Assembly: GCA_964450945.1 (NCBI GenBank)
Contig: CAYVHI010000001.1
Span: 1 to 63,904 of the forward strand
Direction: 5' to 3'
From: an uncultured Rickettsiales bacterium
GTDB lineage: Bacteria; Pseudomonadota; Alphaproteobacteria; Rickettsiales; JABDBP01
Length of the DNA stretch: 63,904 nucleotides
Shown: positions 47,799 through 58,472 of the stretch, in pieces
Position numbering within the stretch: position 1 is the stretch's first letter
How the letters are laid out: every line of letters begins with the position of its first letter
Position numbers and translations under genes: made by a program
Notes under the pieces: model-generated
Databases searched by the model: none
What the model was told of the DNA's origin: nothing
Seen by the model: the letters and a program-made list of their open reading frames with translations, nothing else

Positions 47799-48482
47799 AT
47801 GATAAATGAGAATAACTACATAACAGCCGGGAAAGGTTACAGGAACGATCCCGTAAGCGATCTTAAGACACTAGTAGAATTTAGGAACTCAACCCCAGGC
47901 TTTGAAGAATGGTGTAATCCAGCGTTGGATAATTTACTTAATGTAATCACCAGCAGTATGACAGAAGAGACCAGGAAAGGTAAGCGTGGTCCGGAAAAAG
48001 TTAAATTCATAGCCATTGAAAAATCAAATACCGATGCATTAAGTATTGTTCTTGATGCGGTCCCGAAGGTTCTGCACTTGATATCAGGAAAGAATGGCCA
48101 TTCTTTATATGCTATAGGTAATGTAATTCAAGAAGCTTATTCTACTACTTTTACAACTGGATATAAAATGAGTTCACGGCCTAGCGATTTTGGCAGACAG
48201 GAGCTCATAGATGCTGGCCGCCAAATTGGTGGATATGACGATAATTCTGTATCCGGAAAACTGGGTAAGGCGGGCAGAGATATTTTAGATGTGCGCTCGG
48301 CTTATAATGGCCTTATGCCAACACTTATACACCTCCACTCTCAAGCTGTAGAAGTTATCTTGGAGAAGGCTTTGGGAAAAAAGGTCGATCAGCTTGAAAA
48401 AGCTCCGGCTATCGATCCTAAGGAAGGAGAGGTACGCACAGCAGGCACACCGGAAGTCACCCGTGAAGCAAAGAGGCAGTAA
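47799..48482 (+). CDS. Hypothetical protein
   Basis: RBS agggagg; 227 aa. Confidence 0.7.
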   Translation: MINENNYITAGKGYRNDPVSDLKTLVEFRNSTPGFEEWCNPALDNLLNVITSSMTEETRKGKRGPEKVKFIAIEKSNTDALSIVLDAVPKVLHLISGKNGHSLYAIGNVIQEAYSTTFTTGYKMSSRPSDFGRQELIDAGRQIGGYDDNSVSGKLGKAGRDILDVRSAYNGLMPTLIHLHSQAVEVILEKALGKKVDQLEKAPAIDPKEGEVRTAGTPEVTREAKRQ

Positions 48483-48485
48483 CCA

Positions 48486-48764
48486 ATGCCAGTAAAAAAG
48501 AAAAAAAATTTTGTGGCGCAGGTAATGGCCGGAAAAGAGCGGGTTTATTATCTGCGCTGGGAGCGCAAGACCGGCGAGCCGGTATGGTATTTCATTCAGG
48601 CAGAGCCACCCAAGGAGAAGGCTTTATTAAAAGCTCTGGAGGGAAGTGCTGCTTTCCACCCTGAACAATTCGGCAAGATACTGAGTTGGGGTTATGGCGA
48701 ACCTTCCGTTGCCTTAAAAAAAGAAATGCAGGAAAAATATAAAATCCGCTATCAGGATGAATAG
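48486..48764 (+). CDS. Hypothetical protein
   Basis: 92 aa ORF starting 3 nt after the previous stop. Confidence 0.65.
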   Translation: MPVKKKKNFVAQVMAGKERVYYLRWERKTGEPVWYFIQAEPPKEKALLKALEGSAAFHPEQFGKILSWGYGEPSVALKKEMQEKYKIRYQDE

Positions 48765-48767
48765 TTT

Positions 48768-49109
48768 TTAACTTATCAACCCTTTTTCCTTGAACAGGTT
48801 CTGCAGGTCACCGGTCTGGAACATTTCGCGGCAGATATCAGCGCCGCCAACGAACTCACCTTTCACGAATAGCTGCGGGATGGTTGGCCAGTTGTTATAT
48901 TGCTTTATGCCTTCGCGCACATTTTCGTCAGCCAGAACATCCACATCCTTATATGGAACTTTCAGGTGGTTTAGAATCTGCACAACAGTCATGGAAAACC
49001 CGCAGCGCGGCGCTTCTCTTGTCCCTTTCAGGTAAACAATCACATCATTGTTTTTTATATCCTGTTCGATCTGGGCAATAACACTGTTATCAATTGCTGG
49101 CATGTTCAT
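48768..49109 (-). CDS. grxD: Monothiol glutaredoxin Grx4
   Basis: KGT...PRCGFS, WPTIPQLFVKGEFVGG. Confidence 0.96.
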   Translation of the reverse strand: MNMPAIDNSVIAQIEQDIKNNDVIVYLKGTREAPRCGFSMTVVQILNHLKVPYKDVDVLADENVREGIKQYNNWPTIPQLFVKGEFVGGADICREMFQTGDLQNLFKEKGLIS

Positions 49110-49207
49110 AAATATCTCCTTTAATTTAAGGAAAAAGGCAGTCTAGAGCACATTTTTCCATCAAACAAGAGCTTTTTATCATTATAATGGGGTATAACCC
49201 ATTAGAT

Positions 49208-49251
49208 TTCATAAAACTTTAACACAAAAAGCCTGTTTTTTTTGCTATAAT
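49208..49251 (+). promoter_or_regulatory. CtrA-like box plus -10 of the bolA/grxD array
   Basis: ttcataaaactttaac ... gctataat (22 nt gap to tataat). Confidence 0.6.
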
Positions 49252-49256
49252 CCACT

Positions 49257-49400
49257 CATTCAAATTGCTTATATTCAGGCTTAAGGATTACCCAGAAAGG
49301 GTATTTCTTGAATATAAGCGGTTCAAAAAGTATCAGCCCCACCTGTGGGGAAGATATTCCGGTAAGATAAACTGGCGAAAGCTGTAGACTTACTTTTTCA
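49257..49400 (+). ncRNA. Conserved structured leader, motif B copy 1
   Basis: Near-identical to the reverse complement of 58330..58472 and related to 56238..56376 and 57741..57875. Confidence 0.7.
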
Positions 49401-49427
49401 TATACAACCCAATCACACAACTGTAGT

Positions 49428-49462
49428 GCCTTATCCACTTCGTGAAACGTTTTCACGAGTGG
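49428..49462 (+). repeat. Motif D hairpin (gccttatccact...agtgg) before a cassette ORF
   Basis: Copies at 49428, 49765, 50204 and (minus strand) 58260..58302. Confidence 0.75.
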
Positions 49463-49489
49463 TTTTCTGTTCGTTCGGAGCAATTTCTC

Positions 49490-49714
49490 ATGCGTCGGGC
49501 TCAGATTATGGTGGAGGATGGCGGTAAAAAACTTACCGTAACTCCCCCCGCCGGAATCAAGGTACACCTGTGGGTGTACTTTGAAGGCAAGGACCGGAAA
49601 GCCAAAAAGTTCGGGAACATCAGGGCAAAAAAGGTCCTGACGTTCGACAAGGAAGTCACCGAAGTTGAGGCTTTCCACGGCCAGCATCTCGTCGGCCAGT
49701 GGGTGAAGCAGTAG
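49490..49714 (+). CDS. Cassette ORF, small beta-rich family 1
   Basis: ATG after ggag; GGKKLTVTPPAG.KV.LWV similar to 49825; hairpin at 49720..49754. Confidence 0.7.
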   Translation: MRRAQIMVEDGGKKLTVTPPAGIKVHLWVYFEGKDRKAKKFGNIRAKKVLTFDKEVTEVEAFHGQHLVGQWVKQ

Positions 49715-49824
49715 AAACAAAGGAGTCCCGCACGTTTGTGCGGGGCTCCGCCTTCTGTTGATGCGCCTTATCCACTTCGTGAAACGTTTTCACGAGTGGC
49801 TTCTATACATTCGGAGCTTTTTCT

Positions 49825-50160
49825 ATGTCAGAGTCTTCTGTTGAAAAAGTTACCATAACGGTAACTAATGGAGGTAAGCACCTGAAGGTGCTAATCCCTC
49901 CCGGAGAGGAAATTGATCTGTGGATCTGCCTGAACGCCTTCGTGGAAGATGGTTACGGGTTCAAGGATGAAACTGCTTTCAATTTCACTGGCAGCTGCTT
50001 CGAATCTACCTACCTCTATAAAATAAGAGAGGTGGTGGTTGCCCGAAGTCGCAGGCAAGGAAAACCTCTGGGCATCTCCACTATAAGGGACACGCCAGAG
50101 AAGTGCCCAAAAGATGCAAGAATTGTCCTCGCCAAATGGACGTGGAGGAAGAAGAAGTAA
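49825..50160 (+). CDS. Cassette ORF, small beta-rich family 1
   Basis: GGKHLKVLIPPGEEIDLWI; hairpin at 50164..50198 homologous to the previous one. Confidence 0.7.
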   Translation: MSESSVEKVTITVTNGGKHLKVLIPPGEEIDLWICLNAFVEDGYGFKDETAFNFTGSCFESTYLYKIREVVVARSRRQGKPLGISTIRDTPEKCPKDARIVLAKWTWRKKK

Positions 50161-50263
50161 ACCAAGGGGCCCTGCACTAACGTGCGGGGCTCCGCCTTCG
50201 AGAGCCTTATCCACTTTTAGGGAACGTTTCCCTAAGTGGCTTCTATACTTCTCAGGAGCAAAA

Positions 50264-50506
50264 ATGCACTTTGACGATGTCCTGCTCATCGTGAGTGGGA
50301 ACACTTTCACGCTGGAAGCCGAAAAGAGCCACATTCTTGACGTAAGAGTGTGGCTTGAAGGAGCCACATACTGGGAGACGAACACCCGCTGGTGGTGCTC
50401 TCAGGGTAAGATGCAAACCGCCTTTAAAGCCGATATCAAGGCGGTCGAGGTGTGGGAAATCGTGACAGTCACTTGCATTCGCAAGTGGCCGCCCGAAAAG
50501 AAATAA
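50264..50506 (+). CDS. Cassette ORF, small beta-rich family 1
   Basis: aggagcaaaaATG; ends IKAVEVW...IRKWPPE; terminator gaaaaccc..gggttttc. Confidence 0.7.
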   Translation: MHFDDVLLIVSGNTFTLEAEKSHILDVRVWLEGATYWETNTRWWCSQGKMQTAFKADIKAVEVWEIVTVTCIRKWPPEKK

Positions 50507-50546
50507 ACCAAAGAAAACCCTCAACTATGTTGGGGGTTTTCGCATT

Positions 50547-50765
50547 TTAAACTGCTGTTTTTATTGAGATGGCGTGGATGTTTTTTCCTTTTACGGCATC
50601 CTGCACCATGCGGTGCTGCTGGATTAGCGGCTTGCCCTTAAAACCCTCCCACACTACTTTCACATCGAAATGGTCCTGGTCTCCTGCGGTATCTATCACC
50701 TCTACTGTTGCTCCCGAAAAATTATTTTCCAGAATTGACTTAAGCTCTGCTGGCGCTATTGGCAT
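50547..50765 (-). CDS. bolA: BolA family protein
   Basis: GDQDHF.V.VV...F.GK.LIQQHRMV, IHAISIKT. Confidence 0.93.
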   Translation of the reverse strand: MPIAPAELKSILENNFSGATVEVIDTAGDQDHFDVKVVWEGFKGKPLIQQHRMVQDAVKGKNIHAISIKTAV

Positions 50766-54869: not shown

Positions 54870-54932
54870 CTCCTTTCGGTGCCGTTAAATGCCTTAAGAA
54901 ATCCATAACAACGGGGTGGCCAATCACCTTGT

Positions 54933-55280
54933 TCATGATTCACCCTTCTTTCTGCGGTTAACAGTATCGCTTCGCCTCGAAATTGCGATGATGCGACACC
55001 GCCCCTTCCACACCTGGCCTTTCTTCAGCCACTTCTTTTCAGTAAAGAAGAGTTCGACTGAGGCCATGAAACCAAGATTCTCGACTTTTATGGGTATCTT
55101 GGCTTCTTTACACGAAACAATTACTGAGCAGGCACGGTCGAAAATGTAAAACTTTCTTGGTTCTACAATTTCCTGCCTCTGGTGCAGTAACTTCCCGCGT
55201 TTTATTACAAACCACCTAACCAGAAGTCTGTACTTCGAGCTTAGGTTTGTAATTTTGACGTTTAGGTTGCGCCTTTTCAT
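54933..55280 (-). CDS. Cassette ORF, family 2
   Basis: VKITNLS...LLVRW...KRG resembles 56506 (VLIKNVG...IHVEW..LKRKRG). Confidence 0.6.
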   Translation of the reverse strand: MKRRNLNVKITNLSSKYRLLVRWFVIKRGKLLHQRQEIVEPRKFYIFDRACSVIVSCKEAKIPIKVENLGFMASVELFFTEKKWLKKGQVWKGRCRIIAISRRSDTVNRRKKGES

Positions 55281-55320
55281 GAGGCTTTCTCCAAAAAAAG
55301 ACAAGGTTCTGAAAAAACCT

Positions 55321-55396
55321 CTTCTCTGTTCCAAGAGTGAAGGGGAGTGCCTTTTTTATACGGCCATTTCTGACCTAAGGCGAAACCCCTTCATCC
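55321..55396 (-). repeat. Motif C intergenic structured repeat, copy 1
   Basis: gaaggggtttcgccttaggtcagaaatggcc...aggcactccccttc; also at 55778..55845 and 57215..57290. Confidence 0.75.
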
Positions 55397-55401
55397 TTTT
55401 T

Positions 55402-55734
55402 TCAACCAGTCGGATTCTCTTTTGTCTGAGCGGTTGGATCCTTTAGGTGCAAGGATCCTTGCCCGTTCTCAACAACGAGACGGGCCCAGAGGGTTCCATC
55501 TGGGTGAAAGAGTTCAATCTTTCCATCCATGTGAATTTCAGTTGCTCCCGTTTTATGCGGGCGAATTTCAACAACTTGTTCCTCACAATCTGCTATGGTC
55601 ACCAATAGGACAGTAGCGCCTTTACAGTGGCCATTGTAAGCTACAACCCTGTGCGCAGTGTTGCCGCAGTGGCTACAGTGCGCACTATGGTTGTCAAACT
55701 CACCAGCCGTACCGTATTTATAACGGTACTCCAT
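55402..55734 (-). CDS. Cassette ORF, hypothetical (Cys/His-rich N-terminus)
   Basis: aaaaggagaaaaagttATG; HCSHC motif. Confidence 0.65.
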   Translation of the reverse strand: MEYRYKYGTAGEFDNHSAHCSHCGNTAHRVVAYNGHCKGATVLLVTIADCEEQVVEIRPHKTGATEIHMDGKIELFHPDGTLWARLVVENGQGSLHLKDPTAQTKENPTG

Positions 55735-55777
55735 AACTTTTCTCCTTTTGGGCGAAAGTTGTGGGATCAGAAAACCT

Positions 55778-55845
55778 CTTCTCTGTTCCGAAAGTGAAGG
55801 GGAGTGCCTTTTTATGCGGCCATTTCTGGCCTAAGGCAAACACCT
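55778..55845 (-). repeat. Motif C copy 2
   Basis: gccttaggccagaaatggccgcataaaaaggcactccccttcactttcggaacagagaag. Confidence 0.75.
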
Positions 55846-55857
55846 CCACCCCAAAAA

Positions 55858-56118
55858 TTATTTGTCCCTTGTTGACGGCCACTCCGCTAAGGGAGTGACA
55901 TCATCAACAAAGGCCCAAACTTTGACGTACACAACCTTCCGGTTATAGTATGTCTGGGTCCAGATTTCTTCTCCTTCCGGGGGAGAAACGCTGTAATACC
56001 AGCTTGGAATGGTTGCCCCTTCCAAGCCGACTTCAACATCAACCGGTTCCTTCCGGTTGATACCGTTGATCAAGACACAATTTTTTTCCTGATCAACGTA
56101 GGCCCGGATTTTTGCCAT
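55858..56118 (-). CDS. Cassette ORF, small beta-rich family 1
   Basis: gaaaggaggtgagaaagATGGC; PVDVEVG...VYVKVW...PLAEWP. Confidence 0.75.
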   Translation of the reverse strand: MAKIRAYVDQEKNCVLINGINRKEPVDVEVGLEGATIPSWYYSVSPPEGEEIWTQTYYNRKVVYVKVWAFVDDVTPLAEWPSTRDK

Positions 56119-56237
56119 CTTTCTCACCTCCTTTCTTTGGCGGTTAGATGACAAATGATCGAAGCTATCGGAAGCACGCAAGGAAACGATCCATGCATGA
56201 TTGTTTATGGTTTTTTATGTTTTTGGATTTCTATTTA

Positions 56238-56376
56238 GGAAGGCAAGGCGAACACCACGAAGGCCGTTTGTCTTGTCTGGAATGCCATGCCCACAGGTGG
56301 GTTTGGCACTTAATGAACCGCCATCTTTCCAAGAATGTTTTGCATTCCTTAACCTTAAAAAGAGGCAATTTAAGAA
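56238..56376 (-). ncRNA. Motif B copy 2
   Basis: aaattgc..ttaagga..gcggttca..acccacctgtggg; promoter box at 56409..56424. Confidence 0.65.
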
Positions 56377-56505
56377 CTTACATTATAGCAAATATGTAAA
56401 AGGTTAGTGTTACAGTTTTGTGAAATATGAAGGATATTTAAAATAAAAAACCCTCCTGGTCATCCCTTTGTCTTTTTAAGACTTAGGGTGCCGGAGGGTT
56501 CCTTT

Positions 56506-56856
56506 TTACTCTTCTTCCTCTTCGAATGGGCCGTTTTCTTTTTCCCACTCTTTTAAGGAAGTAAGTGTTAAATGTGGACAAATTGTTGTTTCCCCTGGCC
56601 TTAAAAGGTGGGGATACATACTGAATGTCCACTCCTCAACAAAAACAACCTCACCTTGGTTGGAGATTTTTGCGTTTCCACTGCCACTCTTAAAAGAGAA
56701 GCTGTGGGAAACACTTATCTCCACTGCATCCTCAACCAGTACTTTATCTTTTGGTTTGAGGTTGCAGTAACCGCCCCTTTTTCTTTTAAGGCAGCTCCAC
56801 TCAACATGGATGTTATTTCCACCCACGTTTTTTATGAGAACTTTGTTTTCTGGCAT
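56506..56856 (-). CDS. Cassette ORF, family 2
   Basis: gaaaggaggtaaaATG; nested terminator at 56452..56503. Confidence 0.7.
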   Translation of the reverse strand: MPENKVLIKNVGGNNIHVEWSCLKRKRGGYCNLKPKDKVLVEDAVEISVSHSFSFKSGSGNAKISNQGEVVFVEEWTFSMYPHLLRPGETTICPHLTLTSLKEWEKENGPFEEEEE

Positions 56857-56886
56857 TTTACCTCCTTTCAGGTTAGTGCCAAAAAA

Positions 56887-57123
56887 TCAAAATCTCTCCC
56901 AAACCGCTAACTCTTGGTAATGGGGAGAACCCATAACTTTCACCTCACAAATACGTGAGAGGAATCGCTTCCTCCACACATTTGGCTTTCTCATGTCCTC
57001 TTCATCGAGGACATAAGAAACTTCAGCTCCATCTTTTAACAGGATCTCAATCTGGACTGGCAGGTATGCTGCCAGCCCCGTAACGACTATATTTTTGCCG
57101 TTACGGGAGACTTTGATTTCCAT
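56887..57123 (-). CDS. Cassette ORF, small beta-rich family 1
   Basis: agggaggtaatATG; EIKV...V.TGL....PV, ICEVKVM...LAVW. Confidence 0.7.
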   Translation of the reverse strand: MEIKVSRNGKNIVVTGLAAYLPVQIEILLKDGAEVSYVLDEEDMRKPNVWRKRFLSRICEVKVMGSPHYQELAVWERF

Positions 57124-57214
57124 ATTACCTCCCTTAAGGTATTGTTGCAGCAACACCATAAAAAAAGAAAGAACATCACCCAGTAAAAACAACGGGGCGG
57201 CCGGATGGCCAGAA

Positions 57215-57290
57215 CTTCCCTGTTCCGAAGATGAAGGGGAGTGCCTTTTTATGATACCATTTCTGGCCTAAGGCGAAACCCCTTCATCCT
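57215..57290 (-). repeat. Motif C copy 3
   Basis: ggatgaaggggtttcgccttaggccagaaatgg...aggcactccccttcatcttcggaacagggaag. Confidence 0.75.
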
Positions 57291-57302
57291 TTTCCAAAAG
57301 TC

Positions 57303-57623: not shown

Positions 57624-57740
57624 CTTTCTCACCTCCTTTCTTTGGTGGTTAGATGACAATGGATAGAGGCTATCGGAAGCACGCATGGAAACGATCCATG
57701 CATGATGCTTGGTTTTTTGTTTTTGGATTTCTATGTGATG

Positions 57741-58000: not shown

Positions 58001-58210
58001 TTAGAACTGAAGGAAGATGAGCTGTTCTCCACGACAGACTGCTTCCTCCATGGAAGCGTAGATTGCGATCGTGTCGAGGAGCTTGGCCTTATAAGTCTCG
58101 TTCTTCTTCAGCTGGACGATGTTCCCGTTCACGAAGAGAACAATATCCTTCGCCGCTCCCACCTCGTAGTCCGAGATGGTGAAGTGAGGCGTCATCAGAA
58201 ACCCGAGCAT
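58001..58210 (-). CDS. Cassette ORF, hypothetical (69 aa)
   Basis: agaggatttaccATG; GC-rich codons; terminator gaaaaccccc..gggggttttc. Confidence 0.6.
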   Translation of the reverse strand: MLGFLMTPHFTISDYEVGAAKDIVLFVNGNIVQLKKNETYKAKLLDTIAIYASMEEAVCRGEQLIFLQF

Positions 58211-58329
58211 GGTAAATCCTCTACAGTTGGTAACAGTAAGCCCAACTGTTATTGGAAAGCCACTTGCTTGCGGAACAATTCCGCTGCATTAGTGGATAAG
58301 GCACGAACTTTGGTGTTGGGATTTATATT

Positions 58330-58472
58330 TGAAAAAGTAAGGCTACAGCTTTCGCCAGTTTATCTTACCTGAATATCATGCCCACAGGTGGGTTGATATT
58401 TAATGAACCGCTTTATATTCAAGAAATATCCGTGTGGATAATCCTTAAGCCTGAACATAAGCAATTTGAATG
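58330..58472 (-). ncRNA. Motif B copy 4
   Basis: Near-identical to 49257..49400; promoter box at 58505..58520; motif D at 58260..58302. Confidence 0.7.

What the first reader, a model, noticed from the sequence alone, without database searches (positions are those of the whole stretch)
49200..50540. Three-gene tandem array punctuated by a repeated hairpin, inserted between bolA and grxD
Seen: one promoter and motif B leader, then three units of [gccttatccact-stem-agtgg + (c/t)tTCT..TTC.GAGC RBS + ORF + hairpin]. The first two hairpins share gtgcggggctccgcctt. The array is on the opposite strand to bolA and grxD, which are normally adjacent. A fourth motif D copy follows the motif B leader at 58260-58302. 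Inference: motif D marks cassette boundaries (a recombination or RNA processing site), giving an integron-like array without attC sites.
Basis: partly seen in the sequence, partly recalled or inferred. Interest (0 to 1): 0.7.

Follow-up and report, generated by a model that had tools for sequence, protein, structure and literature searches.

The report
Punctuated orphan three-gene operon
An uncultured alphaproteobacterium has a 1.4-kb insert splitting the normally adjacent bolA and grxD genes; it holds three fast-evolving orphan mini-genes, each preceded by the same short box-plus-hairpin signal, which looks like an RNA punctuation mark of an operon and not like an integron recombination site.

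Summary
Three small ORFs (74, 111 and 80 aa) lie on the + strand between grxD and bolA. One promoter and a structured leader precede them. Each ORF has GCCTTATCCACT, a bulged hairpin, a pyrimidine tract and GGAG upstream, and a hairpin downstream. The 12-mer occurs only four times in the 1.74-Mb genome, always in this setting. In 24 of 40 relatives bolA and grxD are 15-136 nt apart, so this is an insertion.

The three units are homologous from end to end, which makes them old tandem copies. The hairpin stems co-vary. The post-ORF hairpins hold G-U pairs only in the sense strand. The genome has no integron integrase, no attC and no Y1 transposase. I therefore read motif D as an RNA element next to the ribosome-binding site, reused between cistrons, probably a processing and stabilising mark. 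The integron reading fails.

Two results keep a recombination role open. D1 and D2 are 35/35 identical, although ORF1 and ORF2 are saturated at silent sites. One public contig lacks exactly the ORF1 unit. The function of the proteins is unknown.

The parts
48768..49109 (-). grxD (monothiol glutaredoxin, 113 aa), cut off from bolA by the insert
   Evidence: Pfam Glutaredoxin, E=1.9e-19. Orthologues lie next to bolA in relatives.
49208..49251 (+). Promoter of the array: box TTCA-N7-TTAAC (49208-49223), a 22-nt gap, then TATAAT (49246-49251)
   Evidence: One of 16 copies of this promoter type in the genome. The sigma-70 scan does not call it, because the spacing is too long. This fits dependence on an activator. 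The likeness to the CtrA box (TTAA-N7-TTAAC) rests on my own knowledge.
49257..49400 (+). Motif B leader, three hairpins
   Evidence: 7 of 38 consensus pairs show compensatory changes. Model R1 finds 7 copies in this genome and none in 200 genomes of the order. No Rfam match.
49428..49462 (+). Motif D copy 1: box GCCTTATCCACT plus bulged hairpin (stem 49435-49462)
49463..49489 (+). Pyrimidine tract and Shine-Dalgarno GGAG (49477-49480) of ORF1
   Evidence: Sequence. 88.5% identical to the unit 2 module over 61 nt.
49490..49714 (+). ORF1, 74-aa orphan
   Evidence: Only itself among 5.8 billion proteins. The N-terminus is 33% identical to ORF2, E=8e-6. GC3 is 0.69.
49722..49749 (+). Hairpin after ORF1, 12 bp, -24.4 kcal/mol, with no U tract
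   Evidence: One U-G pair makes it 4.5 kcal/mol weaker on the antisense strand.
49765..49799 (+). Motif D copy 2, 35/35 identical to copy 1
49825..50160 (+). ORF2, 111-aa orphan (GGAG at 49813-49816)
   Evidence: Only itself in the protein search. No Pfam, PHROG, PADLOC or NCBIfam hit. Gene callers call it on 4 independent Logan contigs.
50166..50193 (+). Hairpin after ORF2, 12 bp, -23.9 kcal/mol
   Evidence: Two G-U pairs make it 6.4 kcal/mol weaker on the antisense strand.
50204..50239 (+). Motif D copy 3: same box and closing stem, inner stem rewritten by compensatory changes
   Evidence: Four of the seven inner pairs changed on both sides.
50264..50506 (+). ORF3, 80-aa orphan (GGAG at 50255-50258)
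   Evidence: Only itself in 1.84 billion representatives, apart from one 24-residue chance-level hit. 33% identical over 64 aa to the ORF at 55858-56118, E=9e-5.
50513..50541 (.). Terminator-like hairpin with A and U tracts on both sides; ends the array (+) and probably bolA (-)
   Evidence: -20.4 kcal/mol, z=-4.8. Homologous to the two inner hairpins. Not flagged by the consensus scan.
50547..50765 (-). bolA (72 aa)
   Evidence: Pfam BolA, E=8.8e-12.
58255..58302 (-). Motif D copy 4, behind the sister leader (58330-58472) and in front of the 69-aa ORF 58001-58210
   Evidence: The leader modules are 84% identical, and the likeness stops at the 3' edge of the box.

Best explanation
Anatomy.
- About 1.44 kb (49110-50546) has been inserted into the bolA-grxD spacer.
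- It is one transcription unit: an activator-type promoter, a 145-nt structured leader (motif B), three cistrons and one terminator.
- The three cistrons are old tandem copies of a single unit.
- Each unit consists of an unpaired box GCCUUAU, a bulged stem-loop closed by CCACU/AGUGG, a pyrimidine tract, GGAG, an AUG 24-27 nt after the stem, a small beta-rich ORF ending in W-x-K-K/Q, and a G+C-rich hairpin 5-7 nt after the stop.

What motif D is.
- Motif D is the part of the 5' UTR next to the ribosome-binding site.
- It was copied with each gene and so also serves as an element between the cistrons.
- It acts in the RNA, not as a site-specific recombination site.

Most likely mechanism (inferred).
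- An endonuclease of the RNase E type cuts the polycistronic RNA in the unpaired box.
- 3' exonucleases trim the upstream piece back to its strong hairpin.
- The downstream piece begins with a stem-loop 1-4 nt from its new 5' end, and this stem-loop ends about 25 nt before the AUG, which should be just clear of the ribosome.
- Each cistron then becomes a separately stable, separately translated message, and the leader is released as a free RNA.

Side effect at the DNA level.
- The repeated modules recombine with each other.
- That explains the 35/35 identity of copies 1 and 2, and it makes loss of a unit possible.

Shown: the anatomy, the insertion, the homology of the units, the co-variation, the strand bias, the orphan status and the absence of integron or transposon enzymes.

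Inferred: the cleavage, the stabilisation and the gene conversion.
For: Copy number and setting:
- The box occurs only 4 times in the genome.
- Each copy is in the sense orientation in front of a GGAG-ATG of a small ORF.

Selection for pairing:
- The five closing pairs never vary.
- Four of the seven inner pairs show changes on both sides with no break among D1-D3. One position shows three pair types.
- A bulge sits on the 5' arm just after CCACU in every copy.

Strand bias:
- All three post-ORF hairpins hold G-U pairs in the + strand.
- They are 4-6 kcal/mol weaker as antisense.

Intercistronic hairpins:
- hp1 and hp2 fold at about -24 kcal/mol.
- They lack a proper U tract. Only the last hairpin has one.
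- The two intergenic regions fold far better than shuffles, z=-5.3 and -4.5.

Unit homology:
- The units align at both ends, over about 55 nt at the 5' end and about 50 nt at the 3' end, including the last codons and the third hairpin.
- The N-termini of ORF1 and ORF2 align at E=8e-6.

Other points:
- No internal promoter is found.
- An RNase E/G gene is present.
- Intergenic processing sites flanked by stem-loops set transcript ratios in the cip-cel operon, where the stem-loops have comparable energies of -14 to -24 kcal/mol (PMC4423207).
- All seven motif B leaders are followed by a linker and one SD-proximal hairpin. Motif D is therefore a local version of a general UTR design.
Against: - There are no RNA data of any kind.
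- The box holds only UUAU, so it is no more AU-rich than some sites inside ORF2.
- Only three distinct hairpin sequences exist, all in one genome, so the co-variation statistics are thin.
- The hairpins have no G-U pairs, so motif D itself shows no strand bias.
- In the fold of the whole transcript the box is not clearly unpaired (unpaired probability 0.16-0.56), and the D2 hairpin is not recovered in the minimum-energy structure.
- The 35/35 identity of D1 and D2 beside silent-site saturation (pS 0.69) is not explained by an RNA function alone.
- The ORF1-less contig fits a DNA-level role just as well.
Confidence: 0.5

Rival explanations
1. Translation operator or lock. The hairpin, the pyrimidine tract (CUUCU) after it and the GGAG form a switchable structure that hides the ribosome-binding site. 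The box, the bulge and the conserved apical GAA-YGU-UUC form the binding site of a protein, or the target of an RNA, that opens or closes it for all three cistrons and for the 58-kb gene together.
For: - Local folds pair the GGAG region with the pyrimidine tract: GCUUC/GGAGC in unit 2 and UGUUC/GAGCA in unit 1.
- The Shine-Dalgarno regions are mostly paired in the fold of the whole transcript, unpaired probability 0.02-0.26.
- The conserved asymmetric bulge and the YGUU loop are found in eight of the nine SD-proximal hairpins (D2 and D3 plus those behind the seven motif B leaders). This suggests that a factor reads them.
- Earlier notes on other cassettes of this genome describe leaders that hide the start region. 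These are a lead, not evidence.
Against: - The SD-pairing helices are only 5 bp long and differ between units.
- The hairpin itself ends 24-27 nt before the AUG, so it does not cover the SD.
- No candidate binding protein or antisense partner was found. The search for a complement of the box gave only chance 9-mers.
- This reading does not exclude processing.
Confidence: 0.2
2. DNA-level cassette junction. Motif D is a portable recombination handle at which units are gained, lost or exchanged. The enzyme could be RecA acting on the 35-bp repeat, or an unknown enzyme that reads the box and the bulged hairpin in single-stranded DNA. The result would be an integron-like array without an integrase.
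For: - All breakpoints of similarity fall at the edges of the box.
- D1 and D2 are 35/35 identical, while ORF1 and ORF2 are saturated at silent sites, with pS 0.69 and third-position identity 33%.
- Logan contig L256 (SRR12808459) equals the window minus exactly one 337-bp unit, joined inside the repeat.
- The closest paralogue of ORF3 lies in another cluster.
- Conserved bulges on one arm recall the extrahelical bases of attC sites (PMC2727003, PMC5027507).
Against: - There is no integron integrase. Only XerC- and XerD-like recombinases are present, scoring 132-147 bits against a cut-off of 265.
- There is no Y1 transposase.
- Sequence on both sides of the variable stem is conserved (AGTGGYTT), which a crossover in the box would not require.
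- The units are homologous from end to end.
- There are only 4 copies, at 2 loci.
- In the other four public samples the contigs on both sides of the array match the window exactly.
- L256 comes from a thinly covered sample whose contig also breaks at non-repeat positions. Tip clipping at k=31 could fake the deletion.
- Any direct repeat can cause such a deletion.
Confidence: 0.15
3. No function of its own. The repeats are leftovers of tandem duplication, kept alike only by recent gene conversion. The hairpins are ordinary weak terminators that lower expression stepwise along the operon.
For: - The consensus scan calls hp1 (tail GCCTTCTGTT) and the D1 hairpin (tail TGGTTTTCTG) terminator-like.
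- The tandem origin is supported.
Against: - Compensatory changes in D3 and D4, with the box and closing stem invariant across copies whose neighbouring ORFs have lost nearly all likeness, indicate selection on the structure.
- The tails have few U's.
Confidence: 0.1

Closest known systems
Selective RNA processing and stabilisation in operons (Clostridium cellulolyticum cip-cel, PMC4423207; Rhodobacter puf operon, as summarised in PMC6238624)
   Same: - A polycistronic unit with strong stem-loops directly after cistrons.
- Short unpaired segments between the structures.
- Stem-loop energies in the same range (about -24 kcal/mol).
- An RNase E-type enzyme is present in the genome.
   Different: - Here one and the same sequence module is repeated before every cistron, with a fixed 12-nt box and a 5' stem-loop.
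- The genes are orphan paralogues, not subunits of a known complex.
- No processing site has been mapped.
Integron cassette arrays (IntI, attI, attC; PMC5027507, PMC2727003)
   Same: - A row of short ORFs without promoters of their own, in one orientation behind a single promoter.
- Hairpin-forming repeats with unpaired bases at the unit borders.
- A possible presence/absence variant of one unit.
   Different: - No IntI.
- No attC: the hairpin is 28-36 nt against more than 57 nt, there is no GTTRRRY core, and the site is 5' of the ORF next to the SD, not 3' of it.
- The units are paralogues.
- Only two loci carry the site.
5' stem-loop mRNA stabilisers (E. coli ompA type) and the RNase III punctuation of the phage T7 early operon (own knowledge, not checked here)
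   Same: - A stem-loop that would lie within a few nucleotides of the processed 5' end and well upstream of the SD.
- Repeated hairpin signals between the genes of one transcript.
   Different: - The stems (12 bp, bulged) are too short for typical RNase III sites.
- The sequence family is new (no Rfam hit).
Phage 'morons' and other self-contained inserts between conserved genes (named by earlier notes on this genome)
   Same: A unit of promoter, ORFs and terminator dropped between two genes that are adjacent in relatives, with deviant composition (GC3 0.54-0.69 against 0.376).
   Different: - No phage context.
- No PHROG hit and no match in viral contigs.
- The promoter and leader belong to a family native to this genome (16 promoter copies and 7 leader copies).

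Membership tests
Integron | Integron integrase (IntI) gene in or beside the array | tested here: not met
   PF00589 gives two hits in the complete genome, both about 300 aa. Their best NCBIfam matches are XerC (312 bits) and XerD (336 bits). The integron integrase model scores 132-147 bits against a cut-off of 265. The nearer one lies 38 kb away.
Integron | attC site at the 3' end of each cassette (57-141 nt imperfect palindrome, GTTRRRY core) | tested here: not met
   The repeat is 5' of each ORF, its hairpin is 28-36 nt, and its core is GCCTTATCCACT. IntegronFinder was not available.
Integron | Promoterless cassettes read from one upstream promoter | tested here: met
   One promoter unit at 49208-49251 and none before ORF2 or ORF3.
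Integron | Cassettes differ in presence or order between strains | tested here: inconclusive
   One Logan contig lacks the ORF1 unit. Contigs of the other four samples match the window on both sides of the D1/D2 repeat but break at it, so ORF1 is not read directly in them.
REP/BIME or IS200/IS605-type hairpin elements | Many dispersed copies in the genome | tested here: not met
   4 copies at 2 loci.
REP/BIME or IS200/IS605-type hairpin elements | Y1 (HUH) transposase or RAYT gene | tested here: not met
   PF01797 has no hit in the genome, while the controls hit in 6 of 14 genomes.
Intercistronic processing/stabiliser modules (SRPS) | Stable stem-loop right after the upstream cistron that is not a full terminator | tested here: met
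   hp1 is -24.4 and hp2 -23.9 kcal/mol, 5-7 nt after the stop, with U-poor tails and a sense-strand bias.
Intercistronic processing/stabiliser modules (SRPS) | Mapped processed 5' and 3' ends between the cistrons | not testable with these tools
The organism is uncultured.
Intercistronic processing/stabiliser modules (SRPS) | Host endonuclease of the RNase E/G type | tested here: met
   PF10150 scores 333 bits in a 714-aa open frame on C39.
Any described RNA family (Rfam 15) | Match at the gathering score | tested here: not met
   No match in the window at gathering scores. Only chance-level hits with E of about 0.1 or more in 49150-50600.
Tandem paralogue array | Units homologous over their whole length | tested here: met
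   The 5' and 3' modules align in all three units. The N-termini of ORF1 and ORF2 align at E=8e-6. All three share a W-x-K-K/Q C-terminus. The middle parts cannot be aligned, and ORF3 against ORF1 or ORF2 is not significant.

The most novel reading that the evidence does not exclude
Motif D, together with the hairpin that precedes it, is the handle of an integrase-less cassette system. Units of the form [stem - SD - hypervariable small ORF - hairpin - box] are excised, re-inserted and homogenised by recombination at the box and hairpin. A reduced-genome alphaproteobacterium could in this way shuffle, gain and lose fast-evolving small proteins behind fixed expression signals, and seed such arrays into spacers between conserved gene pairs (bolA-grxD here; earlier notes name serC-serA and guaB-metE).
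Probability: 0.12. Interest if true: 0.8.

Novelty: new variant of a known kind. Interest (0 to 1): 0.45.

Why it matters
- If the punctuation reading holds, this is a compact natural 'insulator' module: 3' hairpin, cut site, 5' stem-loop and SD. Evolution has reused it before each gene of an operon, which is of interest for RNA biology and for operon design.
- The contrast between frozen non-coding modules and ORFs that have diverged past recognition shows how orphan gene families can evolve fast while keeping their expression signals.
- The insert also rewires a conserved redox and iron-sulfur gene pair. grxD is separated from bolA and now faces the same regulator box.
- The array belongs to a set of orphan mini-gene arrays private to this genome, whose function is unknown. 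In a host-associated lineage they could be stage-specific or secreted proteins.

Tried and rejected
Public DNA collections:
- I scanned genome contigs and metagenome contigs with GCCTTATCCACT-N(10-40)-AGTGG. The pattern was too loose for collections of that size.
- All listed hits were single and from unrelated taxa. None had the leader or the downstream module, and none had a comparable hairpin.
- Two scans of viral contigs gave two chance hits without hairpins for motif D and none for the leader core.

RNA and protein libraries:
- Rfam gave nothing at gathering scores or at E up to 10.
- Pfam, PHROGs, PADLOC and NCBIfam gave nothing for the three ORFs.

Paralogy and structure:
- jackhmmer of each ORF against all ORFs of the genome found only the query itself.
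- hhalign against a profile of the 57303, 55858 and 56887 ORFs was not significant, E=0.04-0.44.
- The paralogy therefore rests on pairwise BLAST and on the flanks.
- AlphaFold2 on the single sequences gave pLDDT 44 and 41 (all-beta, unreliable), so I ran no fold search.

Other checks:
- A full-text paper search for the SRA run numbers gave nothing.
- The search for a trans-acting complement of the box gave only chance 9-mers. The 3' end of the 16S rRNA is ordinary.
- I considered a dif/pdif-like Xer site, because D1 is 28 nt long. I rejected it because D3 is 29 nt and D4 36 nt, and I saw no likeness to dif as I know it.
- I considered internal promoters in motif D and rejected them. There are no usable hexamers, and copy 1 lacks the TATAC of copies 2 and 3.
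Full report
WHAT IS THERE.

Genes. The window holds grxD (48768-49109, -) and bolA (50547-50765, -). Both were identified by Pfam. Between them, on the + strand, lie three small ORFs:
- ORF1, 49490-49714, 74 aa.
- ORF2, 49825-50160, 111 aa.
- ORF3, 50264-50506, 80 aa.

Gene callers that worked on independent public assemblies call ORF2 and ORF3 in the same frames.

Motif D. The 12-mer GCCTTATCCACT starts at 49428, 49765 and 50204 (+) and at 58302 (-).
- These four are the only exact copies in the window and in the whole 1.74-Mb, 70-contig assembly.
- A relaxed search (3 or fewer mismatches plus a closed hairpin) adds no true copy.
Motif D is not a generic REP.

Anatomy of one copy.
- GCCUUAU is followed by CCACU, which pairs with AGUGG and closes a hairpin of 28-36 nt.
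- A bulge sits on the 5' arm just after the closing stem.
- (C/U)UU(C/U)(U/C), GGAG and AUG follow. The AUG lies 24-27 nt after the stem.

After the ORFs.
- ORF1 and ORF2 are each followed, 5-7 nt after the stop, by a 12-bp G+C-rich hairpin of -24.4 and -23.9 kcal/mol.
- These two hairpins share GUGCGGGGCUCCGCCUUC and have no proper U tract.
- ORF3 is followed by a hairpin flanked by A and U tracts.
- The two intergenic regions fold much better than shuffled controls, z=-5.3 and -4.5.

IT IS AN INSERTION.
- bolA lies directly upstream of grxD on the same strand, 15-136 nt apart, in 24 of 40 genomes of the same order.
- This includes the single genome of the same family (21 nt). One genome also keeps panE-bolA-grxD, as here.
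- Here the gap is 1437 nt, and it is filled by an opposite-strand unit.
- No relative holds DNA like the insert.
- The neighbours on both sides are ordinary housekeeping genes.

ONE PROMOTER AND ONE LEADER.
- The only promoter unit is TTCA-N7-TTAAC (49208-49223) followed by TATAAT (49246-49251).
- It is one of 16 copies of this promoter type in the genome.
- The spacing is too long for a plain sigma-70 promoter, and the consensus scan does not call it.
- The box resembles the CtrA box TTAA-N7-TTAAC (own knowledge).
- The 145-nt leader (motif B) has three hairpins, with compensatory changes in 7 pairs.
- A covariance model finds 7 copies in this genome and none in 200 other genomes of the order.
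- Rfam has nothing like it.
- In all seven copies the leader is followed by an A/C-rich linker and one hairpin in front of the SD. The stems differ, but the loops hold YGUU in six of the seven.
- Motif D is thus the local form of a general UTR design. It was carried along in front of ORF2 and ORF3 without the leader.

THE UNITS ARE OLD TANDEM COPIES.
- A three-way alignment of the units shows homology at both ends. About 55 nt align at the 5' end (box, stem, tract, SD). About 50 nt align at the 3' end (last codons, stop, AAC(C/A)AAG, hairpin). The terminator of unit 3 is included.
- The N-termini of ORF1 and ORF2 align at 33% over 33 aa, E=8e-6.
- All three ORFs end in W-x(1-3)-K-K/Q.
- ORF3 matches neither ORF1 nor ORF2. 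It does match the ORF at 55858 in the neighbouring cluster, at 33% over 64 aa, E=9e-5.
- The proteins are orphans. Each finds only itself among 5.8 billion clustered proteins or 1.84 billion representatives, and no profile library matches.
- AlphaFold2 models are all-beta but unreliable, pLDDT 41-44.
- GC3 is 0.54-0.69, against 0.376 +/- 0.08 for long genes of the genome.

RNA OR DNA?

Evidence for an RNA element:
- Orientation and distance to the SD are fixed.
- The five closing pairs never vary. Four of the seven inner pairs change on both sides without a break among D1-D3, and one position shows three pair types.
- Sequence is conserved on both sides of the variable stem. A crossover in the box would not require that.
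- The three post-ORF hairpins hold G-U pairs in the sense strand only, and they lose 4-6 kcal/mol as antisense.

Evidence against an integron or a transposon:
- The only tyrosine recombinases are XerC- and XerD-like.
- There is no Y1 transposase.
- There is no attC-like site.

The layout [stop - strong hairpin - short unpaired stretch - 5' stem-loop - SD] is what selective processing and stabilisation needs.
- In the cip-cel operon, intergenic processing sites with stem-loops of -14 to -24 kcal/mol set transcript ratios (PMC4423207).
- RNase E prefers unpaired AU-rich sites, also in alphaproteobacteria (PMC6238624).
- This genome has an RNase E/G gene.

I therefore favour punctuation of the tricistronic RNA by a cut in the box. 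This step is inferred, because no RNA data could be reached. Two weak points remain:
- The box holds only UUAU.
- The fold of the whole transcript does not keep the box clearly unpaired.

A translation lock is a compatible rival. In that reading the pyrimidine tract pairs with GGAG, and the bulge and loop are read by a factor.

WHAT KEEPS A DNA-LEVEL ROLE OPEN.
- In their best-aligned 33 codons, ORF1 and ORF2 are saturated at silent sites: pS 0.69 and third-position identity 33%.
- Yet D1 and D2 are 35/35 identical, and the 61-nt modules are 88.5% identical.
- The stems are free to co-vary, so selection alone does not explain the identity. Gene conversion between the copies does. So does entry of the ORF1 unit by recombination at motif D.
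- Logan contig L256 (SRR12808459) equals the window exactly, except that one 337-bp unit is missing and the joint lies inside the repeat.
- In four other samples the contigs stop precisely at the repeat (49457 on the left, 49770 on the right). That is what a k=31 graph does when both copies are present.
- L256 is short and also breaks at non-repeat positions. This points to thin coverage, where tip clipping can fake such a deletion.
- Without reads the variant is unproven.

VERDICT.
- 'Integron-like' is not supported.
- 'RNA processing site' is the best of the readings on offer, and it is untested.
- The element is a new sequence family inside a known kind of architecture.
- It is part of a wider set of orphan mini-gene arrays private to this genome.

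Noticed in passing
G000 contigs C2:89194(+), C9:1842(+), C20:27754(+), C36:7710(+): A separate four-copy repeat of about 100 nt. It consists of RCTTTTTCCACT, a long hairpin closed by CCACT/AGTGG, then CAAAGCTTTTTTGCACAACCCGAAGGGAAAGATGCTTTTT.
   Followed up: no
G000 C5:17812-17959, C1:143195-143342, C15:17692-17832: Three more copies of the motif B leader lie outside the window, each in front of a small ORF. There are none in 200 other genomes of the order.
   Followed up: partly
window 49401-49462, 58255-58329, 57650-57735, 56150-56235 and the three loci above: Every motif B leader is followed by an A/C-rich, G-poor linker and one SD-proximal hairpin. Counting D2 and D3 as well, eight of these nine hairpins have YGUU in the loop (CGUU six times, UGUU twice). 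The stems are unrelated.
   Followed up: partly
window 49181-49251: The CtrA-like box lies between two diverging TATAAT hexamers (49246-49251 on +, 49186-49181 on -). Each half-site sits near -35 of one of them. grxD, now cut off from bolA, may therefore be driven from the same box as the array.
   Followed up: partly
window 49490-50506 and 58001-58210: The cassette ORFs have GC3 of 0.54-0.74 (z=2-4.6 against long genes of the genome). They hold 1.7-3.1 A/U pentamers per 100 nt against 8.4. This also opens long antisense frames (49256-49720, 49891-50385) that are probably not genes.
   Followed up: partly
window 54870-57302 (- strand intergenic regions): The neighbouring cluster uses a different intercistronic module (motif C). 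Its core GCCUUAGGCCAGAAAUGG also starts with GCCUUA followed by a hairpin.
   Followed up: no
window 47799-48764: Two further ORFs without any Pfam match (227 and 92 aa, + strand) converge on grxD.
   Followed up: no
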